Made by a program: the position numbers and the translations under genes
Source: Amoebophrya sp. A120
Taxonomy: Eukaryota > Protista > Dinoflagellata
Direction: 5' to 3'
Assembly (NCBI GenBank): GCA_905178155.1
Contig: CAJINV010000003.1
Span: forward strand, 11,821,105-11,885,104
Length of the DNA stretch: 64,000 bases
Shown: positions 184 to 64,000 of the stretch, piece after piece
Layout: the number at the start of each line of letters is the position of its first letter
Position numbering within the stretch: position 1 is the first letter of the stretch
Notes under the pieces: model-generated
Databases searched by the model: none
Told to the model about the DNA's origin: nothing
Seen by the model: only the letters and a program-made list of their open reading frames with translations

Positions 184-2279
184 TTATACCTCATCCAGAA
201 CCGACTCGGAATTGCACACCCGCAACAGCAGGAATTTCGGCGGTTGGATTTCCAAGCCCTCCATTTTCTCCTTCACGCTCGGCCAAAACTCTTCGTAAAA
301 CCGCCGGCAGGTTTCCGAAATCAGCGGGCGGTCAAAGATATGGATCGCAAACGTGTAGCTTCTGTCGCGCAGCTGAATGAGGTGTGGAACAGAAGTAGAC
401 GTATCCGTATGAAGAATCTCTCTCAAATCATATAGATACAAAAAAAGTTTTTGCCATTTCATGCCTTATACGAGCGATATGAAGACGATTCTATCCTGCT
501 GTGCTGTACCACGTTGCGTCTGCGCGAAACAAAAGTTTTAAAGCAAGTCCTTTATTTCCATAAAAGCTCATGATCACGGAGATGTGGTCGAGGTAAAGTT
601 CCGGTTTTTCAGTCAACCGTTGAAAAAACGCGTCGCAAAGTCGCTTCGTTTCCTATCAAGATGAAAGCTCCCCCCTTCCCATATCAAAGTGGACATCTCT
701 GATGCAGGATTTCCGTACACAAATCAGCTCTGTCTTGCAGAAAGGGAAAATAGGCAGATGCAAAGCCTGGGCCGGGATGTTTTGAGCTAGGCGCTTAGAA
801 TAGCAAACGTCTGCCCTTAAGGTCTAACAGCATCACAAACCGCACGCATAGTGCGGCGGGCTTTCGGGACTTACCTTCTTGCAGCGACTTGTGGCCATAA
901 ATCAGCATCACAATTTTTCAGAAGTGTGCCGTTTCAATATGGGAAGGGGGGACTTTTCCGCACAATATTTCCACATCCGCGTCCGGCCCCTGTTCCTGCT
1001 TGATCTCGACTACCATCTTCTTTTTCGGGATGGTGATAATACCCTGCGCGCACTGCAACACCTCCGTTAGGGTCGTTACTCTTATCGCGTTGGAAAACTA
1101 TGATCCAACAGGGAATAAATCAACGTTGGACTTGTCGTTGCGAGTCGAGAGTCTCGATTATTTCGCTGCGAAAAAATGCTAGATGTGCTTTGCGTGAGGT
1201 TGAGCACGAACAAAGTGTAGCAACCCACTAAAAGTGTAGCAGAGCATCAGCTGCATCATACAGTGTTGAATAGGCATATTTTAAGTACAGTTTTGATAAA
1301 AACGCAAGAGAAGTTTTGACGACTGCAACTGGATCATTGTTTCGTTGCAATAAATTGCCCCGACTCCGTCTTCAGCGCCGTGTGTCGCGCAAGGTAGGCT
1401 GTTTTTCAGGTTCAGTTTCTCTTTCTGCATCACCGTGTGCTTCTTCATTGCAATACCGCATCAGAATCTATCTGATCTCCCAAAAAGAATACTAGACCAA
1501 ACTATTACACATGAGCGACGTACGAAAATCTTTTCGATACCGTGTTTCAATTTCGTCAGCGGCGTTTCTTGTGCCTCTTGTTTCACGTGCTGGTTGCTGG
1601 TTCTGGATTTCGGGGACACACTCTCGGCCGTGGCGGTACTCTCCCGATCGCGCTGCGCTGCTTCTTGCTCCCCACCTTCTCCGCCGGGCTTGTTATCCTC
1701 CTCGTCCCCCTCCCGCAAGTTCGGCTTCGACTTGCGAAAGTCGCTCACCAACTCCGACTGCGTTCGGCCCCAGATCCGCTTCACCGTCTCGTCGTGCAGC
1801 AACACCAAGCGGGCGTCTAGTGTCGCGGCGATGTCGCACTCACAGTTCGTGATTCCCGATGTCCACGCGGTTTCGTACGCTTCCAACGAATTTTCCAGGG
1901 GTCGTACCAGTCGGTCGTCGGAAAAGTGGAATCCGCGGTGCGCGACCAGCTTGTGCACGAGCGAAAGTTTGGGAGCTAGTCCTGCTGTCGGGTCCGATTG
2001 TTCACCGGCGGGTTTGTTCTCCTCGGTTTCTTTGCTTATCACTTCTTTCGTGACTGATTTCAACCACTCCGCTTCCTTCGCGCGCATACCCTTGGTGAAT
2101 TTTATGGCCGCGAGGTTGATGTTTCGTGTCATCTTGGTTCTCGCGTCGATATTCTGATTCAACTTCTTCACGATTTCCTCTTGCTTTCCCCCGTTGGACT
2201 GCTTGCTGGGGCTGGGAACGATCGCTTCGCCCTCGTCGGCCGCGCCTTTACCGGCAGCCTTGGAGCCGGTGCAACCCAT
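184..2279 (-). CDS. Glycerophosphodiester phosphodiesterase (GDPD family), multi-exon, probably N-myristoylated/palmitoylated
   Basis: ORF 1461..2279 has VAHRG, ENSLEAY, ECDI and LVLLHD motifs. A downstream exon across the 654-967 element gives MVVEIK...VIMSF. N-terminus is MGCTGSK. The 3' exon structure and end are not fully resolved. Confidence 0.85.
654..967. mobile_element. Introner (non-canonical intron), tatcaa..ccccccttcccatatc family
   Basis: TIRs; perfect TSD tttcc; removal joins DADVE-TKRLCDAFF in frame. Confidence 0.85.
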
Positions 2280-3071: not shown

Positions 3072-3171
3072 NNNNNNNNNNNNNNNNNNNNNNNNNNNNN
3101 NNNNNNNNNNNNNNNNNNNNNNNNNNNNNNNNNNNNNNNNNNNNNNNNNNNNNNNNNNNNNNNNNNNNNNN
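3072..3171. other. Assembly gap (100 N)
   Basis: Run of N. Confidence 0.99.
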
Positions 3172-9605: not shown

Positions 9606-12600
9606 TCAGTCAACGACCGTGCCTGTATCGGGTAACACGTTGATTCCCACGTCTAGACAGTCGTCGTTACTCACTTGTCCCGTGCGGTCGAACTCCAGGA
9701 GAGTTTGAAACACCTTCTTTCTCACATTTTGCACCTCCGACTGCTTCTGGCCGACGAACGCGACGAACCGCTTCGGCGTGAATCGATTGGTCAGAACGGA
9801 GAAGCGCACGCTCAGGGCGCAGTTCGTCACGGTGCGGACTTGGTCCTGCTTCGCCCGCTTCCGGACGACGGTTATAGTATGTGGCTTGTTCGTTCCCTTA
9901 ACACTGTGCGGCGTCGCGCCAGAAGCGCAGGAAGCGGCGCTTGTACTAGATTTTGGTGTGGTAGAATTATTTTGCCCGAGCCTCTTCTTGCCGGCCGCGA
10001 CGCCGACACCTCCGCCACTGTAATTGTGAATCGGCAGCTGCTTCAGACTGGGCACTTGGTCCAAAACTTTGCGGTTCCGTTCCCTGTAATCCGCAATCAT
10101 GGACGCTGTCGAGGAACCCGAATCGGCTCTTGGGCGTGTTTTTTGCTCAGCAGGTAACTGGAGATGTTCTTGACCGGCGGCCTCGTGAGTTGTAGTAGGA
10201 ATGGTTTTCTGCCCTTCCAGTCCATGACTTCTCTGATCATCTTCCGTGGCTGCATTAAAAACAGTGCCATTCGGGAAGAATTCCAATTCCACCTTGATTT
10301 TCATACTGGCCGAGGGCTCGTAGTAGAAGGTTGGCGACAGCAAGCAGACCCCCTTCCCGTGCTCGCGGATCTTCAAACTCGCGTTCTCCAGACGCCACAT
10401 TATTTTTTCGGCGTTGTTGCAGTACTTCCGGTATCAACTGCAAAAATGTCTGGGTCTGGAAACTTGTGATGCAAGTCCGTGAACAAAATACTGCTCTGTA
10501 ATGCGCCGCCAAGCATGACAAGTTTTTTCGTGTTTCTGTACTGCGTATTTCGCATGAGAGCCTGCGCTTTTGCATGACAGGCAAGAGGACCTCTTGGTGG
10601 CCACGCAATACAGAGTGCAGAGTCATGCTAGACTAGCATGACAAATCTCGCAATCTTCCAGACCCAGACATTTTTGCATTTGATATCCGGAGGATGATTT
10701 GCGGCCGGGGATACAAATTCTGCTGGCTCGTGTCGTCAATGATCAGACGCTGGACCGGCGGGGACGACGCGGCTATAGTACTGGGCTCTACCTGCGAGAG
10801 CGCTTCCTGTTCTCCTGCCCCGACGGCGAGATCAGTCGCGGTGCTGTAGTGTCTCGAGCCGCCCAGCGGCGAGGCCGCGAGGTTCGGGGGCGCGAAACCA
10901 GGATGATGAAGCGAGGACGGTGAAGATGTTGCTGATGCTGTCAGTATAAAAATATTGAATTGGGTCAAAAGATTTCCCCTGCAGTTATCGTTGTGCTTTC
11001 GACGTCCCTTACAAGTACACCACAGCAACTTTTCAATAAATCATACCTCCTTCCCTCCCAGCTGCTTCTTCCCGGGTGAGAGCCGAGTCGTCCAGCGCAA
11101 TGCCAGCCCCGCTGCCCGGCAACAAGTGCCGCAAACCGTCCTTTTTCGAATCGATCGTGATGGTATGGAACGGACAAAAAGGCGTAAGCCCTGCTAACAC
11201 TAAGCATTTGCATTTGCATGCAAAAATACATTTGCAATCATGATCTATACCCCACATCACGTCCGATGCAATAAAGCGGGAAGACACATCCAAAAATTTA
11301 GCAGCAAACACTGACAAAAAGCAGAAGCCCGCCGTTCCATCTCATACACGTTCGAAGCGTCACAGGGACCACCTTGTGCCAGTTCTTTCGACGCCACACT
11401 GGACAACAAGGTCGCACCACAACTACCGCCGTCGTCTCCCCCGCATGTCGCGACCGTGGTCGCCTTCGAAGGACCACAACTAGTAGCAGTGTTTGAAGTA
11501 GATTTGTTCGCACCCGCAGCCCCGGCCTGCGGTCGCTGGTTCCCGTTGTCGTGTCTCGGGATGGGCGATTTCTCGTTGGGCGAGGGTGCAAGCGGTCGGT
11601 AGAACCCCGCGTTGGACTGGTGCAGCTGACTCGCGCTGCTCACCGCCGTGGTGTCAGGGTCGATGGAAGTTTGCTGCAGCCGCTTCTGCTCTGCGTTTGT
11701 TGCTCTCGGCGTGGCTAGTTCGTCCTGTTCCGCACCGTTCGGGACATGCTCCTCCTGCTGCACGACCATCGTGTCCACGATCTTCAGTTTGCTCGACGGG
11801 GCTTGATGCCCGTCACTCGCGGGAGGAGTCCGCGGAGGGCCTGCGGCACTAGACGATTCCAACTGCGTGCGCGCGACTCTCTCGGTGTCCTGGAAGTTGT
11901 GCGTAGTTGTAGAAGTAGTGGCTCTTGGAGCAGCTGCCAGGACCACAGCGCCACCATCATCTGCCTTCGACTCGGAAGAAGTAGTCACTGCAATGGGATT
12001 GTTTGTCGCTCCTCGGCCATGTCCACCCTGATTCGCCAGGCAACCGGAAGTAGGTCCCTGCGATTGCTCCTGAACTTGGTTCTTCAGATTCTTCCCTGTC
12101 AGCGTTGAGGAATGAGCTGGTGCTGCGTCAGGCTTTGGCCCACGACCTGTAGTTCGGATTTCAGCAGGAGCTGCACCTGCAATGGTTTTGATATCAGTGC
12201 TGCTTTTCCTTCCTGCTATTCTCACATCACGGCCTGCAGTGCTACTGCTGCTCCCACCCCCGACAGAACTGCCCGCTCCCGTGGTCCTAGTTGCCGCACC
12301 AACTTTCGGGACGAGGACTGCACGCCCCTGGCCTTGCCTTTCCGCGGGAGCAGTTTTTACCCGATTTCCCCGTGGGTACTTCACAGCCAACGGACTGCTT
12401 TTCCGCTTGCTCGAATTGGTGTGGGAAGATGAGGAAATAGCTGAAGCTTTAATATCTTTGTTTCCCATCGATGTTGTTGATGCCGCTGTTGATGCACTGC
12501 TGGAGTTTGCAGTTTCTGACAGCCCTCCTCCTCCTCCCGCAAAGCTGCTTCCCAACTGCACCTGCTTCCGGCGGAGTCGTTCCTTGTGCTTCTGGAAACT

Positions 12601-15687: not shown

Positions 15688-17054
15688 GGTAGTACCTCGT
15701 CTCAGTAAAACCTAGAGTCGCATGAGAACTTGAACTACAAGAACGAAGAACTAAATAAAATCAGTTTTAAGCAAGAAAACCGTCCAGCCTGCCGGCGTGG
15801 TCCTCATACAACACAACCTCTCATACCACGGACGGCCTCAGTCGCTCCGAAAAGAGCACAATAAACAAGTACTGAAACGTAACTTGTCTTTTTGTGGAAA
15901 AGGGAGTTCCTTGAAGGGAAGAGGACAAAAAAATCGTTTATTTGATTCTTCCCTGTAGATCTTCTAACACGTAGTTCAGACACTAGGCCCTTTGGAAATT
16001 CTCTCAGCATTTTTGGCGCCAAAGCTTTGGCAATAGAACGCGATGCAGTACTTGCTTCTACTGCTTGATGTTCATGTTTTTCGCTCAGGGAACCTCTACA
16101 ACCAACCTCATCTTCCAGCAGAGAGAAACATCAAAGGGAACAGATGGTGAAAACAAGCCACGACAAATAAAAATAGGAACATGAACGATACAAACCCTTT
16201 TGTTTCCCCGCACCAACACGTCGCACCGTGCTCCTCCACGAAAGCGGAAACTCAATAGCCTCCCCTTTGCTTTTTTGCAGCACTATGCAATCAAATAGTT
16301 TTTTGTGCCGATTCGAAAATTAGGCAAACAGGAGAAACATCAATGAGTAGAGAAAAAACCCTCAAATTCAGCCTCGAAGGTGCTTTATTTTCCTTGATTC
16401 TCCGGCACGATGAAAAATAAGCTACTTCAGATTCTTCCGAAAAAAATCCTACGTTTGTAGAGTGTCGCGTGCTCCTCAGTTGGTTGAAGCGATAGTGCGG
16501 AATTCATTGTACAGGACAAGAAAAGGAAATAAATCATGAGTGAGTGAATGAGTGAGTGCATGATCTACTCTTTTTACGAGGAAATAATTAAAAGGGCGAC
16601 CACAATAAGCGAAACGCCAAAATACTGTCTCGCGCAGCTGCGTGTCGAGCATGTTTTACGTCGATATTTTTGATTTGAATAGCTCCGGCAAAAAGATGAA
16701 TCTCTTCAACCAGATAGTTCGTCCAGTGCATTCACTCTTCAGCGCATATAATGGAACATCCGTATCGGTTTGACGAGCTGCAAATTCTTAGTTATCATAC
16801 ACGTGTACAAGTTATCAAAAATCTAAGTTCGTCCCCTAGGACCTCCGTGAAGCCCATACTCTTCCAATTTCCTCGAATACTCCGTTAGGTCTGCCGAATC
16901 CACGCAATACGCCGCGGCGCCCCGCTTCTCTCGCGTATCCATTGCAAAACTATGTCTTGGTGTTCTGGAAGGTGAAGATAAGATGCCAGGTCTGATCGAC
17001 GAGGACACACAAACCTGTTCTTTTGCAGAAGCAGCAAAAGCGAGTCACTTTCGG

Positions 17055-50500: not shown

Positions 50501-53500
50501 CAGATGAAAAAAACCTGGGATAATTTGCTAGTTCCCGCCAAAATCCCGGACCGAAAAGTCCTCCCCAACCTGGCGCCGGAAAACATCCGCAAGAAGCTCC
50601 GGCGGGCCTTTCAACACTTCCGGGAGGCGGCGGACTCGCAAGCGCCGCGATTCGACCACTGGCAGGCGATGTTCTTTTATGCAGTGCAAATACTGATCTG
50701 GGCTTGGGCAGCTACTGGAAGAGCTGCTGACACGCTTGTCATGCATTTCTTGGATCTGCGAGAAGGTGGGCTGGAATTATGCACGCAGAGCACGGCAAGA
50801 TGATCCGCGGAGTCTCGTCCATTTCCCTTGGCCTGCATGAGAGACGCCTTCTTCGGCTGACAAAAAGCGCACACATTTTGTTCTTGCCTACTTTATGCAA
50901 CTCAGGTTTTTGTCGACTTCTCATTCTCCAGACGCAGTCGTAGCATCACAAGTCGGAGTTTTCCAGACGTCCAGGAATATTTGCAATTATGCATATATTT
51001 TCGAACGATGCCGCGTGGGACGAACCGATCGAGGATCGGGCGACCTGTAGCTACACCCGGATGATGAGCACTTTGCCCGTGTTGAAGCCAAGTGAGCAGA
51101 ACATGGACCCTTTTCTATGAGACGAGTCCACAAGAACAACTCCCCTCCGCTCCTTCATTACTTCTAGCAGGGCATGAACAGCTGCAATAGAAAGAAAGAC
51201 GAACGAACCTGGTGCCTGCGCATCGCAAGTTCGTCCGCCAGGCTCCTTCCAGAGCTGGTGCTGCAACCTCCGCCACAAGGCAGCAACGGGATTTTGCATT
51301 TAGCGGGACAGGAAACGAGGGGGGGCGGAATTGTGCACTCGCATACGATTTCCGCGAAGTCTACACCGCGGAAGAGCAACAGGCAAAGGAGGCCGAGGCC
51401 ATAAAAAACCAGGACACGGAGGTCCGGGGTGGAAACAGTTTCTGTTTCGGCGCCATCTTGCCGGACGATTATTGGCGCGACCCGGTGTGTATCCTGTGCA
51501 AGAGTATAATTATCGTACCCCCAGCACACTAATTGCAGTACGTTTTTAAGTACTTAATTTTGCATCCCAATAAATCGGTTCTTTTTTCCGGAGTCCGCAT
51601 GTTAACTTGAAGTTTTTCTTCTCCTGCAATTTGTACTACTGCGATATTGATGGTCCTTATCTTTTGCAATGCATAGCGAGCCAGATGCGGGAGCTACGGG
51701 AGGGAGAATGGGAAAGCATGTGCGACTCGTACAAAAAGTTCCACTCCCTCTGGATGCACGACCTGGACACCGCGGCGAGTGCCATCAGTATTGTCCAACT
51801 CCAGGCACTGAACAAGGCGAGGGATTACGCTAAACAGGTGAAGGGCTGGCAGGACAAGAAAAACCTGGTGAAGGTCGATTTCAGCGAGGTGCCGGTGCTG
51901 CAACAGAAGAAGGCCCCGCGGAAGGGAAAAAGTGGAAGTGCAGGAAATAGTGGCCGCGACATGGATGAAGATCAGGCACTGAGCCTCCGCACCCGCTGGT
52001 CCCGAAGTTTGGAGCGAGTGCAGCAGAGAAAAGCGAAGTTCATGGCGGGGTTCAAAAATTTCAAGAAGTGGGCCACCGTTTTCAACGACTGCAAAGAGGA
52101 CTACGTGCAGGATCTGCGGTCGGCGAGTCAGACCTTCAGCCGGATTTTCGAAAAGCAGCAGTGTGGGATTCCGGAGGATGACAGCAGTGGGCCGTCCGCC
52201 ACGGCGCAGGGCGGCACGAGTGCCGTGGAGGGAGGGAAGAAAGTGGAAGCGTCGGTTATGACGTGCTCAGAAAGATGTTACAATCTCAACTGTTACAATA
52301 AGATCTGGATTTTGTCTTGCATGAACAGCGTGCGGAACATACAGAGCCCCCTTGCGCTTTGCGCAGTACAAATTTCGCCGGACGATAATTCTAGTGCAGT
52401 TTTAGGGCTCCTGAACTTGTCATGTGCATGTCTATAAGTGCACCTGTTGCATCATAAATCTTCTTTGTTTTATCAATGTTGCCAGTTACTAGAGAGATTG
52501 TAACACCTGAGTCGGCTATATCGGTGTTGAACGACCTTCGCAAGGACGCGGAAGAGAAGAAGTCGGAGAAGTTTCTGGCATTAATGAAGCGGATCGAGAA
52601 CAAGGAAATGCCGAGTGAACATGACCCCGAGGCGCTGCTGGGTCGGTGGAAGCAGATGGAAAGGGATAACGAACAGGATATCAAGGAAAGGTTCCGCGCG
52701 AAGGTGCTGACCCCGATGAAGCAGCAGTGCCAGGAACTCCTCGGAGGCATTGCCGCAGCGACCACCGATAAGAAGGAGGCGAGGAGGAAGCTGCGCGCTT
52801 CCCGGCAAAGTAGCAGTTCATCGTCGTTTCTAGAAATTGAGAAAGAGTCCGTAGTGGCGGATCTGGATACGGTGCCATCATCTCCAGGAGAAAATACAAA
52901 TGAAAATGACGCTGCTGCAGGAGGTGCTCTTCCAGCTCCCCCTTCCGCGCCAGCACAGGACCCGACTGGAGAGGGCGACGGCGCGAGTCCCACTCCTACC
53001 GGTGAAGTGGATGAGTTTTCCTCGGGGTCGGGAAGAAGCAAGGCGAAGAACGCGGTGGACAAGGTTGCGGAGGAAGCAAAACTGACGGCGATTCCCGAAG
53101 GGGTGGAGCGGGGGATGGCGCACGTGATTAAATGGCAGCGGTACTTGCTCCACAACGGCGTCAACTTTGACCAGAAAGAGACCGACGTGGCTCCTTTGGG
53201 CGCGGAAGATCCTTGCGAGGTGGTTCCGCCGGAGGCGACCGAAGTTGCCTCGGACGACGACGGGGATTCATCGGGCTCCCGCGGCCCCACCGTCCGGTGG
53301 AGCGTGCGGGTGCTCCGCGATCTGCAGTCGGCCAGCCGGAAGGTGTTTCGGAACTGCTGCGGCAAAGTCGTCAGCAGCGTGCAGATTCTGATGCAGAACC
53401 CCACCAAGTCGGTCGACGACGTGCTAGGGGAGCACTGTGCCACCCTGGAGAAGGAGATCACGAAATATCCAGGAAAAAACACCCATCCCCATCCAATTTG

Positions 53501-56500
53501 TCATGCAAAACACGTATAAAATCCTGTGTTTGTCATGCAAAAAATGGATGTGGATGGGTTTTTTTCTGTGGATACGAAAACCCGGAAAACGCCGGCCGGA
53601 CTCGAGGAAATGGAGCGGCGGTTCGCAGAGGAAGTGGTGAAGCTGTATCAAAAGAAAAATTCCCCCCTCGCCATATCGAAATGGAAATCTGTGATGCGGG
53701 ACATGTGTATACATATCAAATTTGTCTAGCAGTAGAGGACTGCAGACAGATACAAAGCCGGACTATGGATGCTTTGGTGTAGGCGCCTAGCAAGGCAGGC
53801 ATATCCTCCGTAGGCCATACAGCATTACAAATTGCCTGCAGAACGCGGCGGGGTTTTTGGATTTGCCTTCTAGCAATACAGAGGCGACTTGTGGCCTCGC
53901 ATCAGCATCACAAATTTTGAGAAGTGTCCCGTTTTGGTATGGGGGGAGGGAGGATTCATTTTTCCTCACAATAAGCTGTCGGAATTGGAGGCCAAGGCAA
54001 GCGAGGTGATGAAGTCCGTGGACCGGTCGGTTGCGCCGGAGGACGAGTATACCAAACTCCTGAGTGGCGGGGGCGACGAGGAAGCAGAGCGGGAGCGGCG
54101 AAAGGCGAAGCGCGGGAATTGCGCGTTGCTCCGGGGGGAGCTGCGATTGACCTACGACCTGATGAGCGATGTCGCCGGCCCCCTGCACCGGGGCGCCGTG
54201 AAGGCGATAGCCTTTCGGAAGAGTCCGCCCAAGGCCGTCGTTCTGGCGTACCCGAGCGAAGTGAACGAGAGAGCGGCGGACGCCGAGGAGGCGGCGGGGC
54301 TGGAAGCCGCGGAAGGGACGGAAGCGCCTGCGACGGCGGCGGAGAGTGGCGGGAAAACGAGTGCTGCGCCGGCGGGGGCGGAGAAAAAGCAATCTTTTGT
54401 CGAGCTGACCGAGGAGGAGAAACTGGAGCAGCTGGAGCTTGAAACAGAGGCATTTTCCTCTCTGCAAGAGGGGGTCGGCGAAACCACGGGCCTGTCCGCA
54501 ACCAACGCGCTGATGGTCGTGCACCCGACGAGATTGCGCTCCTTTGTGCTGGAGTGCCGGCGACTGGACCGGTTGCTGGAAGATTTGAAGTACCGCACGG
54601 GGGAAATGAAGAAGGTCCAGGAGGTATTGTGAGTAAAAACAGTCTTGCCACGACCCCCAAGTTGTCATGCGATTGCGCATGACTAAAATGCTTCTCATGC
54701 GCAGCCCCACGAGGAGCAAGATCATAATGCTCGTACCCGTGGGAGCTTGCTTGTCATGCTGCAATCAGCATAAGATGATCGATTTGTGAAGATGCGGCTT
54801 GCCAGGCTAAACACCAGTGTAAGAGGACTGCGAGTCCGAAGTAGAGCCTTTCATGCACAACAGCCAAATGAACTTATTGATTTGTATAGCGAAGCGTTAA
54901 GTCCATCTTCTTGACGCTTGACTCGTGTGGGCCCCGTTTTTACACAGGATAGGAGGAGAAAGCGAAAACAGGGGAGGAGCAGAAGAGCTTTACAGTCGTT
55001 GACCACCACCTGGACCAGGCGGGAAAGAAGCAAGGTGAGCTGTGTATCACACAGATGAAAAAAGCTAGCACATCACATTTGTACAATTGTGCAAAAATAA
55101 GTACAGCAGCGCAGACACGACGTACTCTGTTACGGACGAGCTTCCCGTGATATGGTTTATTTGTAGCATGCGCATAGAACACTGGTGGTTTTTGTGTGCT
55201 GATTTGTAGTTTTTGCAATGCAAGAACTATGCCGCGCTACTAGCTTTTATCTCTGGGTCGATACTGTGGAGGGACTCTGTGAAGCACTGGGCGGATAAAG
55301 CGATGGAGTTTCGGACCCAGATGTTGCAGGACATGGGCCAGACGTTCGATAAGTTAAAGAACCTCCCCCCACCCAAAGCCGCCGCGGTCGACGAGGCGGC
55401 AAAAGACTGGCCGGCGGAGGAGCCGCCCGTGCCGAACGAAAAGAAAGCTCCGGCCAGGTTTGTGCGGATAAAGTCCGGCACGTTCACCACTTCAATCGAG
55501 CCGAAAAACATCGGAATCGAGGCGCTGCGGCTGCTAGACCGGTTGCACGAGCTGGGGCGCGCGTGGCGGGCGCACAACCCCGTGGGGTTCGAAACTTCCG
55601 TTGACAGCACGACCTCGGTCGGCGGCGCCTTCTACAATTTGAAGCAGGGCCTGCGGCGGCAGACCGGCAACACGATGGCGCTCGCGGTGCCGGACTTGAC
55701 GGTGGATGCGCTCCAGTCCTACTGGAACGGCCACGCCCCGAAGAAAGCGGACCAGACCCCCGCGGACAAGGACGTGGAGGGCTGGGTGGGGGCCAGCGGC
55801 ACGAGCGCAAGCGCCACCGAGCTGGGGAAAAAAGCGACCGCGATTGACGCAAAGTGGAAGGAAATTAGCAAGTGGACCTTTGACCACGCGCAAGCCGCGT
55901 ACAACGACTTGGTGGAACTGAGCAACGACGACACAAAAAAGCTGCAAGCGGTGTTTATCAAATGCAAATATCTTGTTCGATGGTCTGGGTCGGGAAGATT
56001 GCATAAGACTTGTCGGGCAGGTTTATTTCGATGAGCCGTCCTCAGGTCGTGTGGCATGTAGGACGTAGCATGACAGATCACTCTGTGAGATCTGTATCAT
56101 GCCCCTCCTCCATGAGAAACTTTGTCTAAACTCAGTCGAAAGTGGACGACTATAGTTGGCACACTCCTAAAGCACAGATTTTTGCACGACCCAGAGGACT
56201 TAGCATGACAGGTTGCAATGTAATATTTCCAGACCCAGATCGATATTTGCGTTTGATAGTGTTGGCCGGCGTGCAAAAAGCGAAGGAAACCAGGTCTAGC
56301 TTCTTCGGCACCGCCATTGACATTGACAGCATCGTGAAACGGAAGGCCGCGCTGGACGAATATCAAATGCAAATATGTCTCGGTCTGGAAAGATGCAAGG
56401 TTTGTCATGCTTGTCTGGCATGACTGATGCGTGTCCAAGACGAGATTCTTTTGCTTGTCATGCAAAAAGCAGTTGGTCATGCTGAAAGCGCAACACTATG

Positions 56501-59500
56501 CCGCGCAGATATTTCTCATGCTTGGCCGTGCATTACAGAGAGTTCACTATTCACAACTCAGCATTACAAGTTTCCAGACCCAGACAACATATTTGCATTT
56601 GATAACGAACTGGAGAAAACAATGCGGACCCCCCGGCTGGACGAGCTGAAAACCATGAAACAGTTCGGTTTGATATCCTGAGCAAAAACGATCCCACCCC
56701 ATAGTCAAAATGGGAAATCTGCTACACAAATTGGCCAGCTTTGGTTGTTGCGCATGACAAGTTTGGCTTTGCAGTGTAGTCCTGTTTAGCTTGTTCAGTA
56801 GCGTCACAGCTCTAGCCTATTATGCAGATTGGAGCACTACAAACCCGAAAACACAGCTAGGGCATGCGTGTCGTGGGGCTCCGCATAAGAAACATCTTGA
56901 GCATGCAGATACGCACGAATGGTCCAGCCTCCCCTGTCCGGGTGGGGTTGCGGCTTAAGGGAGAGTCTCGCCCCTTAGCCCAAAGGGGTTACGTCGTCTC
57001 TTCCGTGAGAACAAAAACTTATGGCGTAAAATGGGTCGGGTCCTGGATCGTTCTGTATGTTGGGCTGTCGCGCTCGGCTAGCTGGCTGGGCTGTACTGAT
57101 CAGGTGTGGTGGGTAGCTCCCGACTGGTTGGCACTTTTCTTGGGGCGACTTGCCGTGGTAGCGCTCGGCTATTGTATGATGAGGTCGCCGAAAGTGCTTC
57201 CTCGCCCACCCCCCGGGGAGGGGATCCTTGACCTGTGGCGCTGGGAGCGGGTGTCCACATCATGATGATGATGACGCACGACAGCTATGGAGTGGGGACG
57301 TTTTTACATAGCAGATTTGATCACTTCTGCGGAGGCCGAGGCTTTTTTCGACCGTTTCCAGGACGTTTTTCTCGGGAAGGACTTTCTCGATTATCGCACC
57401 ACCGTTGCGGGTAGCTACACCGCCGACAGCGGCCAGCGAATGGAGAAGTTTTATGCCCGGCCGACCTACGTAGCCACCTACCCCGCGACGCAGGTGCCGA
57501 AGCAGATGCTGCTCGTGGGAACGGGGTACGGGAAGGGTGGGCAGGAAACCGGAAACGCGCTCATGAAGCTGGGGAGGAAGTTGCTAGCCACCAGCACGGA
57601 ATTAGAAGGCGAGCCGGTCTATCCCTAGCGAGAACGTCCTCACTTCATCATCTCCCGAGTCAACTACAGCGTGAAACTTTTCTTGCTACACAAATCAACA
57701 ACTTTTGGCTGTTGCGCACGACGCAATCCAATCTTCTTGTCCAGCTGTAGCAGTCGCATCGCAAATCTATCCTCTTTTATATCCTGATTCTAGCATGAGA
57801 ACAAGCTCCTCTGAGACATAGCACAATACAAATTTCTTGTCCTGTTGTGGCTGCGCATGAGAAACATTTTAGTTGTGCAGTGATTTGCATGCCTCCATTG
57901 GGGACGTTTTTACTCAGGATAAGGTGGGCGACTTGTTCTTGCGCCTCGCGCGGTTGCGCATGGACATCCAGGCGCAGAAGGCGGACCTGTACCAAGTTAC
58001 CCCGTGCAAAAGTATCGTGGGTGCTCGGGCAAGTTATTTTTGCATGCCGGAACAATGACAGACGTGGTTCCTGTACCTGAAGCTCCTGCGTGACAATAAA
58101 TCTATCTTTCTCTTTGTCATGGAATTTACACTAGTACTACGATGCTTTTGAAATGCATACAGCACATGGCGAATTGGATGACAGGGTACGTTAGGGCTCC
58201 GAAGGACGTCGAAGACGAAGAATCTGCTTCCACCGGCGCGAGCTTTTTGCAGCAACAGACAAAGAAGAATCCGCATGAGGTAGAAGTTCCAGCGGTCCTG
58301 CACCAGGTTTCAACAACATCTGCAGGACGAGGACCTCAACATCCCCCTCCGCATGTAGTGTCTGAAGAGCAAGATCCTGCGGCGTCATCAACAGCAGACG
58401 TAGTCCGCCGACCTGCAGGAGGGCGAGCCAGTGTAGTCGCCGCGAATGAGAATTCGTTCCTAGCCCTTGAAGAAAAAAAAATGTTTTCCAGTAGTACAAA
58501 AACACCTGCTCAGAGTGCCGCGGACAAAGTGACACTGCTGAAAGCCACTTCCGCGATTCTGAACGATTGGAATGCTGGGTTGGCACAGGAAACCGAGGAC
58601 GGTCTGGGAAAAGTGGAGGGTCTGGTGGCAGAAGACATCGAGAAGATGGTCAACGGCGACGGATTTTCCCTCGGCATTTCCCCCAGAACCGATATCGAGC
58701 GGGACATTCGGAAGTTTTCGCTGGATGCGGGCGACTTACGGGAGTTGCGGCTGCTGTTCATTTATGGATTGCAAATATGTCTGGGTCTGGAAATTTGTAA
58801 TGCTAAAAGTGAATGATAAACGCACTGCAATACGCAGCTATGCATGACAATTTTTTTGGCTGCCATGTCTTACGTATTCCGCATGGCAAACTGCGTTTTT
58901 GCATGACAGGTAAGAGGGCCTTTTCGTGGCTATGCAACACAGATTCTCGAGTCATGCCAGACAAGCATGACAAACTTGCATTCTTCCAGACCCAGACATT
59001 TTTGCATTTGATATCATTCCCGTTTTGCAGTTCCTCACTGCAGCGTCGATTCAGCACGGGTACGTGGAGCACCTGCAGCTCGAGAGAAGCCGGGGCGGCT
59101 TCCGATATGCATTGCAAATATTTGGGAGGGCGTCTAGAGGAGCAAGAGTGACAGTTGTATTTTTGCTAGATCTGGATCTTCACACATGTATTTGTTGCAT
59201 GAACTACGCCAAAAGTTAGTTGCCCACGACTTCTTGCTTACGCAAAGCGGGAACTATTTCTCATGCGAGAGAGGCATGAAGAGCAAGAAGCTTTCGCGAA
59301 TAGAAGATCTGTAATTCTTTTGTGTGCATTCCAGACCGTCTGTGTTGTAATTCAAAAGATGTACTATGGCAAACAAATGCTGCAGTGCCCCCCAGACATC
59401 ATATTTGCAGTTGATATCCCAGACTATTTAAGGAACCTGGCGAAGTCCGGCGCCTCGGACAAAACAGAATCGGGGGAGAAGGCGGAGGTTTTGTCCGATT

Positions 59501-62500
59501 TGGAAAAGAAAATCCAAACCATTTATCCGGGCTGCAACAGTGGAGACCAAGGAGGTGGCGATACTGCTAGCACTGCCGCGCCTCCCGGCGCCACCCCGCC
59601 GGGGCAAGTGCCGAGAAAGCGGAAGCCGCCGTGTCTCGTCTATCAAAATGAAAAATCCCCCCTCCCCATATCGAGCCGGAAAGTTCTGTTGCTGGATTTG
59701 TGTACACAAATTAGCTCTGTCTTGCAGTGGAGGACGGCAGGCCCATATCATGCCAATTTAGAGAGGTTTTGGCCTAGGCAATTAGCATGAGGGATGTCTA
59801 TGCTGTAGGCCCAACAGCATTACAAACCGCCTGCATAATGGGGCGGAGCATATGCCGTTGCTTTCTTGCAAGGCACACGCGATTTGTGGTCACAAATCAG
59901 CATCACAAATTCTCTGAGCCGCGGAGGCTTGCCTCCCCAGCGATGCTGGACAAAGGCAATGTCGGCGCGGTTGTTTTAGCATCACAAGTTCTCTGAGGCG
60001 TGCCTTTTCGATATGGGGAAGGGGGATTTTTCTTTACGATATCGTTGCGGGGGGAAACACGGAACTGCCGCTCCAGTTGATGGAGTCCTACGCAATGCAA
60101 AAGCATATCGTACTAGTACTACTTGCATTAAAAATTTTCTCAAGAACAAAAGTGCAATTTTTCGTGCTAGCTCAGGTAGAGAGATCGACCTGTAATGCAG
60201 GACTGCGATTTAGATTTTCGTATACGACGAGCGCGATACTGCTTTTTCAGATGATAAATTCTCCAAGGGCGACGCGGAAATGCTCAAGGACCTCCTGCTA
60301 GATGCCGCGAAGGCACGCAGCGTGGGTCCCTTACAGCAGGACCTGACGGGTATTTTTCAGAACATCGAGCGCGTGAGCCGGGAGGTGAAGGAAGTCTGGA
60401 AGTCCTCCGACCCGGTCATCGCCCCGGAGTTTGTCAAGGCGACCGCGGATAGCGCCCTGGAGCTGCGGGGCACGGCTTTGTACAATTTGGACGACCTGGC
60501 GGCAGTGCAAACCAAGACCCAGGACCTGGTCGCCTGGTTCGACCGGGCGGAGGCGCTGACCCAGAAAATGGTGGATATCAAATGCAAAAATGTCTTGGTC
60601 TGGAAGATTCTGAGACTTGTGATGCACGTCTTGCATGAGCCATGATGTCTGTGATGCACGCCCTAGCATCACAGATTTTTGAGGGCACCTGGATGCTTAT
60701 TCCGCATGACAAATGCCCTATCCTTGTAGCAAAAATTATACTCCTTTTGCTACTCATGCAATACAGATTTTTTTGGAATCCAAATGCAGCATCACAAGTT
60801 GCATTCTTCCAGACCCAGACATTTTTGCAATCCATAGTGCAAAAAGAGGCAAAAATCGGGGGCGCTTCGGTGCTTGGGATCTTCGGGGGGGCGAGTGGGG
60901 GGCCGGACGCGCTCGCGACCTTCATATGCATTTCGCAAACATGTGGTCAACATCTGGGTCTCGTCTCCTGGGTCTCCTGGCATAAAGTTCTGTTGCTGAA
61001 GATACTCGCTTTTATCTTCGTACTACAGATGATCTTTAAAAACCGTAGTACGTGAGATCTGTCGCCTAACAAATCCAGACCGCCCAGATCGATGTTTGCA
61101 AAAGTGCATACTTCAACAAGGCGTACGACAACGCGCAGGCGTTTAACGTGAACCCGCTGCTGGCAGACCGGCTGAAGATGAAAAAGGTCAACGTCGCTGA
61201 GTACGCGCAGCACGACGTGGAGTTTGCGCGCAATCTGCAGGCCGCCGTGCACCGGAGGAGCAAGGACTACTTGGAGCGACTGTACCACGGTCCGCCCGTG
61301 AGGCCCGCGAGCGGAGACGAGGGCTACTGGTCGGAGCCCGAGGTTCGGACCACGCGGGTGTCCCTGAAACAGAACCTGATGCAACGCAGAGAAGCGACGT
61401 CGCAGGAGCGGGAGGGCTTGAAGGACGGGAGCCGGATTGAGGAGCTCTACTCGCTCGCGGCGGGGGCGCTCCCCGAGTTTTGTATCGCCTTTCCCCGGAA
61501 GGCGGACAACGACGGCAGCTGTCAGAGCAAGCTATGCATTTTTGCAAAAGCATCGGTCTTCTACTACGCATTGCATGACAAATATATTTTCCGTAAGCAA
61601 AAAAGGAATTCGTCATGCAGGTTATCCGGTATTCGCACGCAGACCTGTGATGTTGCCAGACTGCAATTCGTACGAAAGCGATCATGCCTTTGCAGCTGAT
61701 AGAAGCAGCTCCGGTACGATTACGAGAAACAGAAAATGGCCGTCGACGCGGATTTGAAAGAAGTGCGGGGCAAAATCGCGGTGGGGCCCAGCGACGAGAC
61801 CAACCAGATTGAAGGGAAGCTGCAGAAAGCCTTCGCCCGGTACGACGTGCTGCGCAAGGCTTTTGCCACGAAACTGGTCGCGTTCGCAAAGACCGCGTGG
61901 ACTGCCCTGAGCACGTTTGACACCAACGCCGGCATGGCAGGGCCGTCGTCGTTTGTGCAAACAGGTAGAGACCAACCACATGGTCTCCGGAGTAAAAAGA
62001 AAGCAACGGAGCAGCTGGCGCACGGTGAACAACTGCGCTTTGACGACCCTTCTGACCGTTCTGATTTGAAACTACTTGGGTCGTCCACCACTTCCGGCAG
62101 CGCTTCCCCTCGTCCTGCCGGGGCCTTGCAAAAGGAGGAACGGGTCGTGGAGCTGCGAAAATCTGACGACCGAAAACAAGGTCCGCCCCCTCATAGGGAC
62201 CTGTTCACCGTCGCGGCGGGCTTGCTACAAATGGCGAACGTGGAGCAGAAGGTCATGCTGAATTATTACGACCACACGGACGTGGGACTGTCCACCGAGA
62301 TGGAGGCAAAAGGCAACGAGTTGTTGCAGGACCCGTTGCAGCTGCACCCGTTTGCCTACAACAACCGGAACACGGCCACGACAACCGTCGGCGCCGCCTT
62401 TGTCACCGTGCCGACGGACCCCCAGACGCAGGTGGAGCCCGCGGAAGACATGACGTCGAGGACGCGGGCTTGGAAGAAGTGGAAGCAGGACACGCTGCAG

Positions 62501-64000
62501 GTCTTCCCGCAACTTGCGTTGCGCGTGCGCCAGCTCGCGCGGCTCGGCGACGGGCTGTACGGGCTGGGCAAACTCTTGGGCGCGGTTCCGCCGGGGGGCG
62601 GCCCGGGCGCCGGGGCCCCGGCCCTTGGGCCGACAATTGTCTCCAAGATAGGAAGCCGACTGGACACGCACCGAGCCGCGGCGGCGGCGCTGCTGAACCA
62701 GGACGGAGGGCAAACGCCGGGGATTCTGGCCCAGCGGAAGAGCGTTCTCGGTTGCTCCCCGGATTCGGCCCCGTCAGCGGAGGAGAAGGACGACGCACAG
62801 CTGGCGCCGCTGAGCAAGGTCGAGAAGCTCTGCCCCGTGCTATTCGAGGGGACGCCAACGGACGAAGCCGCTGGAGGCTCGGTAGGGGTCGCGCTTGATA
62901 AGATGAAGGCGTTTGTAGGAACCTTCGGTCAAGAGACGCGCCGCGATTGGAAGAAGAAGTGTCCCTGCTTCGAGAAGCCGTTCGAGGAGAATCCGAATGC
63001 AGACGATTGGTATCCAAGAAAAAAACGCTGATAGTGTATGGTAAAAAAAACTTTGTGTTGGAAACGATGCAAGACAGCTACTCTTCGTCGTGTTGTTGAT
63101 TACTTATGCGTCATAGGCTAGCACTAGCTCCATTCTAAGTGCGCGTTTCTTTTCACGAAGCGCTCGCGCATGACAAGTTTTTGCTGTCATGCCAGGCAGC
63201 TCTATCATCGACTTTTTCCTCCAAAGGGTTAATACACTATTTACACAGTTTTGTTTTCTCGGCATAAGTGGGCGAGGAAGTCTGAGGGGTCAAAGCCCGT
63301 ACGGACGGCGCTGCCGTTCTTCCAATTCAGTGACAACTTAGCGGTGATGGACGACCGCCTGGCGCAGTTTTTTGCCTCGGCGAAAGGAAACACGATAAGC
63401 ACCTCGGTGGCCGGGTACGACGGGCGGCCGGAGACCTTTTGGGAGGCGTCCGACGACAAGCGCTACCCGTTCAACCTTCCGGATTATCTCACCTTTGCGG
63501 ACAATTTACTGTCGGAAAAATTCAAGGCAAACGCGGCCGGGTTTCACGCGTGGCCGTCCTTGAAGCAGCATTGCGGGAAAACCGGGTCGGACGAGTCCCG
63601 GTCCGGCTGTCCGGGCGCGGTCTTGCGCATGCTGCTCAACTATGCATTGCAAATATGTCATCTGGGTCCGCAGGAGTGTCCGACGATTTTGTCATGCCAA
63701 ATTTGATCGACACAAAAATCTGTATTCCGTGACCAGGAACAAGAGTCCCCACTTTTGGTTCTTACCAGAAGGCGGCATTCCTCATTCGGATTCAGCATTG
63801 CGGAGCCTTCTCGAAACTTGTGATGCTGGAGCCGACATTCCAGGCCTTCTGGGTCATGCAGAAGCTGCATGACAAAGCTCGCACTTTCCAGACCCAGACA
63901 TATTTGCTTTTGATATCAACCCGCGGTACGGGGTCTCCCCGCGCGCGGCGCCGACCTTCAAGGTCAAGTCCGCGCCCAGGTCCTACGACATTCCCGAAGC
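41540..64000 (+). CDS. Giant hypothetical helical/coiled-coil protein (>4,600 aa in this span), ~31 introns, truncated by the window end
   Basis: Continuous frame rebuilt by removing each element plus one TSD copy; G/C-ending codons in exons; no recognisable enzyme motif. Confidence 0.85.
43481..43732. mobile_element. Introner
   Basis: TIR; perfect TSD agatc; joins KQI-ARMRPK. Confidence 0.93.
43764..44025. mobile_element. Introner, young 262-bp family
   Basis: ~34-bp TIR; perfect TSD gggaa; joins KPG-NEVLQK. Confidence 0.95.
44693..44915. mobile_element. Introner
   Basis: TIR aactccccctccccctcatttg; perfect TSD cagaa; joins EDR-NRRHL. Confidence 0.9.
45114..45455. mobile_element. Introner (related to 13543)
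   Basis: tatgg..tgaaatcga TIR; TSD ggcat/cgcat; joins KGI-GAGKS. Confidence 0.8.
45703..45754 (+). repeat. 27-bp coding tandem duplication (EAVAAPPT x2)
   Basis: cagaagctgtagctgccccccctac occurs twice. Confidence 0.85.
46495..46721. mobile_element. Introner, tatcgcargaaaaaactgt family
   Basis: TSD agcgg/cgcgg; joins KEAV-KTNFD. Confidence 0.82.
46967..47270. mobile_element. Aged introner
   Basis: tatcc..gcata; flanks caacg/cagtg; frame restored. Confidence 0.65.
47876..48137. mobile_element. Introner, young 262-bp family
   Basis: TIR (terminal A>G); perfect TSD gcagt; joins GLQS-LGSNF. Confidence 0.93.
48845..49053. mobile_element. Introner (related to 46495)
   Basis: TIR gaaaaaactgtttc; TSD gaaac/gcaac. 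Confidence 0.85.
49077..49338. mobile_element. Introner, young 262-bp family
   Basis: TIR; perfect TSD gaacg; joins FLN-DQYYKLPK. Confidence 0.95.
50678..50995. mobile_element. Introner
   Basis: tatgca..tgcaaata TIR; TSD tcttt/tattt. Confidence 0.78.
51490..51675. mobile_element. Aged introner
   Basis: tatcctgtgcaaga / cttttgcaatgcata; frame restored (PVC-QMREL). Confidence 0.6.
52257..52520. mobile_element. Introner
   Basis: TIR ctcag..tgttacaatctc; perfect TSD tcggt. Confidence 0.85.
53466..53574. mobile_element. Minimal 109-bp introner
   Basis: Mostly TIR hairpin; perfect TSD cgaaa. Confidence 0.88.
53646..53973. mobile_element. Introner (family of 654 and 59641)
   Basis: Perfect TSD agctg; joins VKL-SELEAK. 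Confidence 0.88.
54625..54951. mobile_element. Introner
   Basis: gtaaaaac TIR; perfect TSD ggagg. Confidence 0.85.
55045..55263. mobile_element. Introner
   Basis: TIR ..aaaagctag; perfect TSD ctgtg; joins GEL-WRDSV. Confidence 0.85.
55956..56258. mobile_element. Introner
   Basis: tatcaaatgcaaatatc TIR; perfect TSD gtgtt. Confidence 0.9.
56361..56604. mobile_element. Introner
   Basis: tatcaaatgcaaatatgt TIR; perfect TSD acgaa. Confidence 0.92.
56674..57315. mobile_element. Introner carrying a nested insertion
   Basis: tatcctgagcaaaaacg family; perfect TSD tttga; joins FGL-ITSAE. Confidence 0.82.
56860..57280 (+). mobile_element. Nested 421-bp insertion, possibly a truncated non-LTR retroelement/SINE
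   Basis: Flanked by 7-bp direct repeat acagcta; (ATG)n tract near the 3' end; lacks introner motifs. Confidence 0.6.
57620..57921. mobile_element. Introner
   Basis: aacgtcc / gggacgtttttactcaggata; flanks cggtc/aggtg; frame restored. Confidence 0.78.
57998..58159. mobile_element. Aged introner now readable as GT-AG intron 57996-58162
   Basis: TIR caaaagtatcgt / acgatgcttttg; CAA|gt...ag|CAC. Confidence 0.65.
58763..59013. mobile_element. Introner (related to 10432 and 43481)
   Basis: TIR; perfect TSD tcatt. Confidence 0.92.
59106..59416. mobile_element. Introner
   Basis: tgcaaatat TIR; TSD tccga/tccca. Confidence 0.8.
59641..60041. mobile_element. Introner (family of 654)
   Basis: ~33-bp TIR; TSD tcgtc/tcgtt. 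Confidence 0.88.
60089..60256. mobile_element. Aged introner
   Basis: aaaagcatatcg / cgatactgcttttt; frame restored. Confidence 0.6.
60576..60836. mobile_element. Introner, 262-bp family in reverse orientation
   Basis: Interior is the reverse complement of the 49077 copy; TSD gtgga/gtgca. Confidence 0.92.
60925..61110. mobile_element. Introner
   Basis: tatgca..gcaaacat TIR; perfect TSD cttca. Confidence 0.88.
61533..61701. mobile_element. Introner
   Basis: TSD caagc/gaagc; joins SK-QLRYDY. Confidence 0.78.
63011..63266. mobile_element. Introner
   Basis: TSD attgg/agtgg; joins DDW-ARKSE. Confidence 0.78.
63641..63915. mobile_element. Introner
   Basis: TIR gcaaatatgtc..tgggtc; perfect TSD tcaac; joins LLN-PRYGV. 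Confidence 0.9.

What the first reader, a model, noticed from the sequence alone, without database searches (positions are those of the whole stretch)
654..63915. About 40 TA-ended, 5-bp-TSD mini-transposons that must be removed precisely without GT-AG signals
Seen: about 40 insertions interrupt coding frames. Nearly all start TA(T) and end (A)TA, with long TIRs. Twenty have a perfect 5-bp TSD, each a different sequence. At nearly all, deleting the element plus one TSD copy restores the ORF. For 43481 (agatc) and 43764 (gggaa), no register within the TSD gives GT-AG, GC-AG or AT-AC. Established: non-canonical introns with inverted and direct repeats have been reported in Amoebophrya, so the class is known, but I know of no established removal mechanism. 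Inference: junctions are set by the TIR hairpin plus the direct repeat, via a modified spliceosome or a non-spliceosomal cut-and-ligate pathway. Stage-specific DNA excision, as for TA-bounded ciliate IESs, is an alternative.
Basis: partly seen in the sequence, partly recalled or inferred. Interest (0 to 1): 0.92.

Follow-up and report, generated by a model that had tools for sequence, protein, structure and literature searches.

The report
Hairpin-measured transposon introns in Amoebophrya
Dozens of small transposons sit inside the genes of the marine parasite Amoebophrya and are missing exactly from its transcript-based sequences without normal splice signals; this class is already published, but the cut falls at a fixed distance from each element's hairpin ends wherever it can be read, which likely points to a modified spliceosome and would be directly testable.

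Summary
In detail: 41 elements, 21 with a perfect 5-bp target duplication, each different. The window is Amoebophrya sp. A120, and these are the published introner elements of Farhat et al. 2021, so the class is known. A transcript-type contig skips element plus one repeat exactly; DNA-type contigs retain 12 elements. Public gene models remove 14 of 14 elements they cross. Best model (0.5): a relaxed spliceosome using the hairpin as ruler, with that A as branch point. Main rival (0.33): SOS-like cut-and-ligate. DNA excision is unlikely. The scan noted similar single elements in two other dinoflagellate genomes (unchecked notes).

The parts
654..967 (.). introner, repeat TTTCC/TTTCC (+ strand letters); host strand not settled
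10432..10685 (-). introner, perfect repeat CCGGA
13543..13850 (-). introner, perfect repeat CGACT
13898..14159 (-). introner, main family, perfect repeat ACTCG
16936..17240 (-). introner, repeat TGCGA/CGCGA
24493..24660 (-). introner, perfect repeat AGAAC
28432..28633 (-). decayed introner, GTTCG/CTTCA, ends ACA
31568..31833 (-). decayed introner, AACGG/GTCGG; an in-frame GT-AG at -1/+1 is possible
32745..32891 (-). TAT..ATA inverted-repeat element, repeat only 2/5 (doubtful junction)
38240..38521 (+). introner, TTGCA/TTGCC
40083..40311 (+). introner, CATTC/CATCC
43481..43732 (+). introner, main family, perfect repeat AGATC; no canonical register
43764..44025 (+). introner, main family, perfect repeat GGGAA; 34-bp perfect stem, fold z = -8.8
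44693..44915 (+). introner, perfect repeat CAGAA, ends ACA
45114..45455 (+). introner, GGCAT/CGCAT; retained in a DNA-type contig
46495..46721 (+). introner, AGCGG/CGCGG; retained in a DNA-type contig
46967..47270 (+). decayed introner, CAACG/CAGTG; retained in a DNA-type contig
47876..48137 (+). introner, main family, perfect repeat GCAGT, ends ATG
48845..49053 (+). introner, GAAAC/GCAAC
49077..49338 (+). introner, main family, perfect repeat GAACG
50678..50995 (+). introner, TCTTT/TATTT; retained in a DNA-type contig
51490..51675 (+). decayed introner, GTGTG/GCGAG; nearby in-frame GT-AG options
52257..52520 (+). introner, perfect repeat TCGGT; skipped exactly (269 nt) in an X5 contig, retained in an X1 contig
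53466..53574 (+). shortest introner (109 nt), perfect repeat CGAAA
53646..53973 (+). introner, perfect repeat AGCTG; X6 contig piece starts where exact removal predicts
54625..54951 (+). introner, perfect repeat GGAGG; GT-AG at the -1/+4 cut; removed in the gene model
55045..55263 (+). introner, perfect repeat CTGTG; removed in the gene model
55956..56258 (+). introner, perfect repeat GTGTT; X5 and X6 pieces end where exact removal predicts
56361..56604 (+). introner, perfect repeat ACGAA; removed in the gene model
56674..57315 (+). introner, repeat TTTGA, 642 nt with a nested insert; removed in the gene model
56919..57273 (.). nested repeat inside the introner, flanked by an 8-nt direct repeat and ending in an ATG-repeat tail (retroposon-like)
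57620..57921 (+). decayed introner, CGGTC/AGGTG; cut keeps 1-4 letters of the left repeat
57998..58159 (+). decayed introner TAC..ATA, CAAGT/CAGCA; cut keeps 4 letters (intron TT..GC) although GT-AG lies one base away
58763..59013 (+). introner, perfect repeat TCATT; removed in the gene model
59106..59416 (+). introner, TCCGA/TCCCA; cut keeps 4-5 letters
59641..60041 (+). introner, TCGTC/TCGTT; removed in the gene model (mismatch is silent)
60089..60256 (+). decayed introner TAC..ATA, AGTCC/AATTC; cut keeps 4-5 letters
60576..60836 (+). introner, main family reversed, GTGGA/GTGCA; cut keeps 4-5 letters
60925..61110 (+). introner, perfect repeat CTTCA
61533..61701 (+). introner, CAAGC/GAAGC
63011..63266 (+). 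introner, ATTGG/AGTGG; cut keeps 2-5 letters
63641..63915 (+). introner, perfect repeat TCAAC; removed in the gene model
54384..60887 (+). span of public partial gene model CAD7943318.1 (P0002, 951 aa, Amoebophrya sp. A120), crossing 12 elements
62903..63998 (+). start of public gene model CAD7943320.1 (P0001), crossing 2 elements

Best explanation
These are non-coding DNA-transposon-like elements with TAT...ATA inverted ends and a 5-bp target duplication that are missing exactly from transcript-based sequences, and they are likely removed from pre-mRNA by a relaxed spliceosome that uses the terminal hairpin as a ruler. Shown here: the anatomy; exact loss of element plus 5 nt; retention in DNA-type contigs; no sequence preference in the duplication; both orientations tolerated; a common cut 1 nt before and 4 nt after the inverted repeat at six readable junctions. 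Inferred: a cut-and-paste transposase with a 5-nt staggered cut inserts the elements at random in exons, binding the shared subterminal TGT(C/G/A)ATGC repeats. In the RNA the arms would pair and define the intron in place of U1. The intron would then read N-TAT(C/G)...A-T-A-NNNN, with the element supplying +2U/+3A of the donor and the invariant A at -7 as branch point, from which the 3' cut is measured. Because 1+4 equals the 5-nt duplication, the original exon is restored whatever the target. Odds by step: published introner class 0.97; RNA-level exact removal 0.93; fixed -1/+4 cut 0.8; spliceosomal lariat chemistry 0.5.
For: Organism and class; PMC7789003 sections 10-12 and 16 (TAT + 7 nt + AAA ends in A120, RNA-seq-supported non-canonical introns, U1 not found, U2/U4/U5/U6 found). 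Exact skip: X5 contig 51834-52251 + 52521-52926; the other piece ends at 53973, 54618, 55950 (two runs), 57615 and 58164 fit removal of element+5. Gene models remove 14 of 14 elements they cross. An element in another assembly lies between the equivalents of yeast Rpb1 residues 830 and 831 with no canonical register. Retention would stop or shift the frame in 196 of 197. Register: 57998 only k=4; 59106, 60089, 60576 k=4-5; 63011 k=2-5; 57620 k=1-4. All 9 predominant A120 non-canonical motifs in Table S4 of PMC7789003 have T at +2. No target bias: canonical register possible in 14 of 148 against 16.6 expected; orientation 30:29. Strand asymmetry: 3' A at -7 unchanged in 209 of 209, partner T changed 6 times; last A changed 6 times, first T once; Fisher p = 0.005. 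Precedent: Giardia introns start VTATGTT and have a branch point fused at a fixed distance to the 3' site (PMC6679479). At k=4, 69 of 148 junctions fall between codons (p = 0.003).
Against: No lariat, circle or protein factor was observed. Terminal G-G or A-C pairs, which spliceosomes favour, are not enriched at any register (k=4: 25 vs 24.0). The base two before the candidate branch A is T in only 93 of 197, so there is no U2-type consensus, and that A is paired in the stem (191 of 197) rather than bulged. The asymmetry test is post hoc and rests on 13 deviants. The register comes from six junctions in one stretch; the gene models were built from transcript alignments, so they are probably not independent of the contigs, and the 74-nt middle piece of the key contig was not displayed. 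A codon-fit test of the register on 64 mismatches was null. In annotated large A120 families about 30% of 3' ends are AG (PMC12130899 supplement), against 14 of 148 expected from a pure k=4 cut; this may be aligner sliding or a second route. PMC7789003 calls splice sites variable relative to the hairpin. Decayed elements have an in-frame GT-AG within 5 nt more often (6 of 14 vs 16 of 148, p = 0.005), suggesting some are spliced canonically. No transposase was found.
Confidence: 0.5

Rival explanations
1. A non-spliceosomal, structure-directed pathway: a nuclease would cut the paired ends in a staggered way (-1/+4) and an RNA ligase such as RTCB would join the exons, a precise version of SOS splicing or of euglenid nonconventional splicing.
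For: No terminal-dinucleotide or terminal-pair preference; orientation 30:29; a ready GT-AG ignored at 57998. In PMC12779559, pairing of inverted repeats is necessary and sufficient for SOS splicing and sites rarely map to GU-AG. Euglenid nonconventional introns leave as circles (review PMC11282704).
Against: SOS splicing is described as imprecise, leaving indels, while removal here is exact. The strand-specific invariance of +2U and of the A at -7 and the continuum to GT-AG ends fit a spliceosome more simply. RTCB, AKAP17A and CAAP1 could not be looked for, since no genome is held.
Confidence: 0.33
2. The element RNA would splice itself or with a dedicated protein, group II-like, using the A seven bases from the 3' cut as branch nucleophile.
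For: Invariant A at -7; group II introns have a bulged A 7-8 nt from the 3' end (recalled, not from a call).
Against: No Rfam match in the window; elements as short as 109 nt; internal sequence works in both orientations; families share little beyond the ends and an 8-nt motif.
Confidence: 0.06
3. The elements are spliced by the ordinary spliceosome at nearby GT-AG sites.
For: In-frame GT-AG within 12 nt of both ends exists at 11 of 21 perfect window elements, counting those inside the repeat, and within 5 nt at 6 of 14 decayed ones.
Against: 10 of 21 have none. At 52257, 53646 and 54625 the contig ends fit exact removal and not the shifted alternatives, and at 57998 the GT-AG is passed over.
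Confidence: 0.04
4. The skips are reverse-transcriptase jumps across hairpins between direct repeats, and the real mRNA keeps the element, perhaps bypassed by the ribosome.
For: Hairpin plus direct repeat is the known substrate for such jumps (recalled); all RNA evidence here is cDNA-derived; any 5-nt repeat holds one whole matching codon.
Against: Exact removal also occurs where the repeat matches 2 of 5 (57998) and where the whole-region fold is no better than shuffles (52257, z = -0.43). The X5 contig crosses 52257 unbroken. Retention would break RPB1.
Confidence: 0.03
5. Stage-specific excision from DNA, as for ciliate IESs.
For: TA ends; X5 and X6 are only guessed to be RNA.
Against: X1 has flat depth (46-54 in bins without repeats) and unbroken contigs across 12 of the 24 elements in the laid stretch, with no differences; X5 and X6 depth is uneven, as for transcripts. 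No separate germline nucleus is known in this lineage (recalled). Contigs drop rare variants, and only one DNA-type run was laid.
Confidence: 0.02

Closest known systems
Introner elements / non-canonical introns of Amoebophrya sp. A120 (Farhat et al. 2021, PMC7789003; Gozashti et al. 2025, PMC12130899)
   Same: Same organism, TAT + 7 nt + AAA ends, short direct repeats (Fig. S19 legend shows 5 bp), about 250 nt, RNA-supported non-canonical splicing, thousands of copies.
   Different: Not a different system. The paper gives repeats of 3-5 nt and variable splice positions; here the repeat is uniformly 5 nt, the cut is -1/+4 wherever readable, and an A at -7 is invariant.
SOS splicing (PMC12779559)
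   Same: Transposon removed from mRNA, triggered by paired inverted ends, no GU-AG needed.
   Different: SOS is imprecise and cuts in or near the repeats; here removal is exact and outside the repeats. Its factors were not testable.
Giardia/Trichomonas spliceosomal introns (PMC6679479)
   Same: Donor VTATGTT with a relaxed first base; branch point at a fixed short distance from the 3' site; pairing within long introns.
   Different: They keep a branch consensus and AG, are few, and are not mobile.
Introners of Polarella, Symbiodinium and Aureococcus (bioRxiv 10.1101/2020.10.14.339549; PMC9860276)
   Same: DNA-transposon-derived introns with target duplications.
   Different: Those recruit GT/GC/GA and AG from the duplication or element, so targets are biased; here no bias is seen.
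Euglenid nonconventional introns (PMC12501133; review PMC11282704)
   Same: Hairpin-joined ends, direct repeats, likely MITE origin, unknown machinery.
   Different: Different end motifs (CAG/CTG) and an unrelated lineage; circular products are reported there and unknown here.
IS3EU/GingerRoot DNA transposons (PMC10045372)
   Same: TA..TA termini.
   Different: Their duplication is usually 6 bp, here 5; no transposase in hand.

Membership tests
Amoebophrya A120 introner elements | Found in Amoebophrya sp. A120 | tested here: met
   Two A120 proteins match window exons letter for letter
Amoebophrya A120 introner elements | Inverted repeat TAT + 7 variable nt + A run | tested here: met
   Position counts
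Amoebophrya A120 introner elements | 3-5 nt direct repeat at the borders | tested here: met
   5 nt in 181 of 225
Amoebophrya A120 introner elements | Removed from transcripts at non-GT-AG ends | tested here: met
   the run type RNA is a guess of the tool
Amoebophrya A120 introner elements | Repeated in the genome | tested here: met
   Depth up to about 5,000-fold over unique bins in X1; at least 136 loci with the exact end pattern in another assembly
MITE (non-autonomous TIR transposon) | Short, inverted ends, fixed-length duplication of varying sequence | tested here: met
   134 different sequences among 148 duplications
MITE (non-autonomous TIR transposon) | Autonomous partner with the same ends | tested here: inconclusive
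   No transposase among 33 window and 70 locus reading frames; long copies carry nested repeats; whole genome not held
MITE (non-autonomous TIR transposon) | Empty orthologous site with one copy of the duplication | not testable with these tools
   No fetched locus overlaps window exons
IS3EU/GingerRoot | TA..TA termini | tested here: met
IS3EU/GingerRoot | 6-bp target duplication | tested here: not met
   0 of 225 with 6 bp
IS3EU/GingerRoot | IS3-related DDE transposase | not testable with these tools
   No autonomous copy in hand
Standard U2 spliceosomal intron | GT/GC-AG (or AT-AC) ends | tested here: not met
   1 of 41 window elements is GT-AG at the -1/+4 cut; 14 of 148 at any register
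Standard U2 spliceosomal intron | Branch-point adenosine with U2-pairing consensus | tested here: inconclusive
   Invariant A at -7 without flanking consensus
Standard U2 spliceosomal intron | Lariat product, snRNA dependence | not testable with these tools
   Needs raw reads of this strain or experiments
SOS splicing substrate | Paired inverted ends, no GU-AG, either orientation | tested here: met
SOS splicing substrate | Imprecise excision leaving indels | tested here: not met
   Exact in contigs and models; contigs hide minor forms
SOS splicing substrate | Needs AKAP17A, CAAP1, RTCB | not testable with these tools
   No genome held
Splice-site-recruiting introners (Polarella, Symbiodinium, Aureococcus) | Duplication biased to supply GT/GC/GA or AG | tested here: not met
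   AGG at positions 3-5: 4 seen, 3.1 expected; base use matches coding background
Ciliate IES | Excised from somatic DNA | tested here: not met
   12 elements spanned intact in X1; other life stages not tested
Euglenid nonconventional intron | CAG/CTG motifs near the ends | tested here: not met
   Ends are TAT(C/G)..(G/C)ATA; motif from the review

The most novel reading that the evidence does not exclude
Amoebophrya A120 runs a dedicated, sequence-blind and exact RNA-splicing system for transposons: it measures one base before and four bases after a transposon hairpin, matched to the 5-bp cut of one transposase family, so any exonic insertion, even in RNA polymerase II's catalytic core, is erased from the message. 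It may branch at a stem-embedded A without U1 or AG, or be a precise cut-and-ligate counterpart of SOS splicing.
Probability: 0.45. Interest if true: 0.85.

Novelty: already known. Interest (0 to 1): 0.5.

Why it matters
More than 60% of A120 introns are non-canonical and their removal was left open in the genome paper (PMC7789003). A fixed -1/+4 rule with a candidate branch A at -7 turns that question into specific tests on existing RNA-seq and simple RT-PCR. If it holds, it shows how a genome can make exonic transposon insertion nearly harmless, and it would fix gene annotation in this lineage. The elements themselves are not a new discovery.

Tried and rejected
No whole genome is held, so snRNAs, RTCB and transposases could not be inventoried. 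No run holding the stretch is on record as RNA ('no RNA holder listed'); X5 and X6 are guesses. Raw-read run X8 gave 145 reads, nearly all on element ends of another locus and none forming exon coverage, so it tests nothing here; X2-X4, X7 and X9-X11 were never laid. Read-level junctions for 59.9-64 kb are missing. A codon-fit test of the register on 64 mismatches was null. Terminal-pair enrichment was null. No Rfam match. No exact end pattern in viral contigs. No public protein model was found for the 41-51 kb gene within the lengths searched. Pfam named only 2 of 33 window frames above cut-off (GDPD, Na/H exchanger). Candidate 34383-34705 was rejected as AT-rich chance. A candidate near 26.4 kb was entered with wrong ends and left out of all counts. 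IS3EU membership was rejected on duplication length. Roy et al. 2023 (Curr Biol) is not held; passages of its preprint do not mention Amoebophrya. Figures S19-S25 of PMC7789003 were seen as legends only and may already show the -1/+4 offset.

Full report
Observation. A plain scan for TA-ended inverted repeats, a profile scan and reading of the whole window gave 41 elements of 109-642 nt. All start TA and 35 are TAT...ATA. The flanking 5-nt repeat is perfect in 21 (all different), 4/5 in 12, 3/5 in 6 and 2/5 in 2. Terminal arms pair better than shuffles in 41 of 41. Removing element+5 nt gives the best coding frame in 41 of 41. The window list was hand-curated and partly used the repeat, so the unbiased control is: of 225 elements defined by ends only, 181 have a perfect 5-nt repeat and none a 6-nt one, against 0.28 by chance. 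With frames called independently on each side, 59 of 62 confident cases (of 186 with flanks) imply the same removal.

Organism and prior work. Two public proteins labelled Amoebophrya sp. A120 match window exons letter for letter. Farhat et al. 2021 (PMC7789003; I read the abstract, sections 10-12, 16, 20, 25, 32, 35, 36, parts 1-2 of 5 of the supplement and passages of Tables S4-S7) describe these elements: inverted repeats starting TAT with an A run, 3-5-nt direct repeats, over 60% non-canonical RNA-supported introns, U1 not found, no transposase found in A120. Gozashti et al. 2025 (PMC12130899; passages, and 19 of 58 A120 rows of one supplementary table) class most listed families as TIR DNA elements and report one family with integrase-like reading frames. 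The class is therefore known. Four searches listed no paper on how these introns are removed.

RNA versus DNA. In one search (40001-59900), run X1 has flat depth and its eight listed contigs span 12 of the 24 elements there with no differences. Runs X5 and X6, guessed RNA, have uneven depth. One X5 contig skips 52252-52520, the element plus one repeat. Six other piece ends fall where removal of element+5 predicts. Only 8 pieces per run were displayed. The two gene models, built from transcript alignments, remove 14 of 14 elements they cross. In another assembly (136 loci; no exon overlap with the window), an element sits in RNA polymerase II's largest subunit between the equivalents of yeast residues 830 and 831, with no canonical register, so exact removal appears essential. 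Retention would stop or shift the frame in 196 of 197 elements.

Where the cut falls. Imperfect repeats show how many letters (k) of the left copy stay in the message. 57998 allows only k=4 in both contig and model; 59106, 60089 and 60576 allow 4-5; 63011 allows 2-5; 57620 allows 1-4. The only common value is 4: the intron begins one base before the inverted repeat and ends four bases after it. At 57998 this gives TT..GC although GT..AG lies one base away. All nine predominant A120 motifs in Table S4 have T at +2, as this rule predicts. Against it: six junctions in one stretch, models probably not independent of the contigs, a null codon-fit test, about 30% AG 3' ends in annotated families, and the paper's statement that sites vary.

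What is and is not read. Among 148 perfect repeats with a called strand (from 197 elements: 158 of 258 locus elements and 39 of 41 window elements), base use matches coding background. A canonical register is possible in 14 against 16.6 expected, and G-G or A-C terminal pairs are not enriched. The main family lies 30:29 with and against the gene. So targets are not chosen for splice signals, unlike Polarella and Symbiodinium introners (passages of bioRxiv 10.1101/2020.10.14.339549 and PMC9860276). The ends, however, are asymmetric on the transcribed strand. In 209 strand-called elements (of 255), the A third from the 3' end never varies while its 5' partner changes 6 times; the last A changes 6 times and the first T once (Fisher p = 0.005; at a stricter threshold 187 elements, p = 0.015; post hoc). 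With k=4 these are intron positions -7 and +2. An internal motif, TGT(C/G/A)ATGC, occurs in 186 of 197 elements in both directions (11.9 per kb, none in 26 kb of coding sequence); I read it as a transposase binding site.

Mechanism. I favour a relaxed spliceosome (0.5): the hairpin would define the intron without U1, N-TAT would act as donor, and the A at -7 would be the branch point from which the 3' cut is measured. [quoted passage not shown] Decayed copies gain in-frame GT-AG more often (6 of 14 vs 16 of 148), and 69 of 148 junctions fall between codons at k=4, both as in spliceosomal introns. The main rival (0.33) is a precise cut-and-ligate pathway like SOS splicing (PMC12779559; abstract, passages, discussion), which fits the lack of terminal preference but is reported to be imprecise. 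Self-splicing, nearby GT-AG, reverse-transcriptase artefact and DNA excision together get about 0.15. No product or factor was observed.

Transposon type. TA..TA ends match IS3EU/GingerRoot, but those usually make 6-bp duplications (passages of PMC10045372). No transposase was found in 103 reading frames. This is a lead only. Other papers seen: PMC11282704, PMC12005148 and PMC12501133 (passages; discussion of the last), bioRxiv 10.1101/2025.08.15.670264 (abstract, section 14).

Verdict. Real, and already known as a class. Interest 0.5, for a concrete and testable cutting rule on an open mechanism.

Noticed in passing
window 56919-57273: A second repeat nested in the introner 56674-57315, with an 8-nt direct repeat and an ATG-repeat tail; similar contigs lie on it in X1, X5 and X6. 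The enlarged element is still removed in the gene model.
   Followed up: partly
L043 1501-2472; L005, L028, L066, L068: Introners carrying larger nested insertions (one of 972 nt in the RPB1 gene with a perfect repeat), suggesting introners shelter other mobile DNA.
   Followed up: partly
148 perfect elements, window and loci: Codon-phase bias 69:40:39 (p = 0.003) with no clear target-sequence bias to explain it; weaker in the window alone (15:15:9).
   Followed up: partly
window 26384-26524 (-): Intron-like insert starting TAT, with repeat TCTGG/TCAGA and GT-AG at the -1/+4 cut, but weak inverted ends and G where other elements have the invariant A; possibly an old introner turned canonical, and a counter-case to that invariance.
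   Followed up: partly
run X8 on window 43763-43814: About 137 raw RNA reads carry a related element end joined to one foreign flank, so an element-containing transcript from another locus or strain is abundant there.
   Followed up: no
imperfect repeats, position 4: Left copy G against right non-G in 9 cases, the reverse in 1; would fit a preferred G as last exon base; not corrected for multiple tests.
   Followed up: partly
window 37300-64000 (+): One or more very long coding regions with 32 introners and no Pfam match; public models cover it only in fragments.
   Followed up: partly
window 29400-30700 and 33000-36900: Long GC-rich and AT-rich non-coding stretches where gene direction switches; no similarity between them by blastn, no Rfam match.
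   Followed up: no
window 3913-4662 and 6378-6851 (-): Two neighbouring small genes share a short peptide motif near their starts (seen), possibly a diverged tandem pair.
   Followed up: no
window 3072-3171: Assembly gap of 100 N.
   Followed up: no
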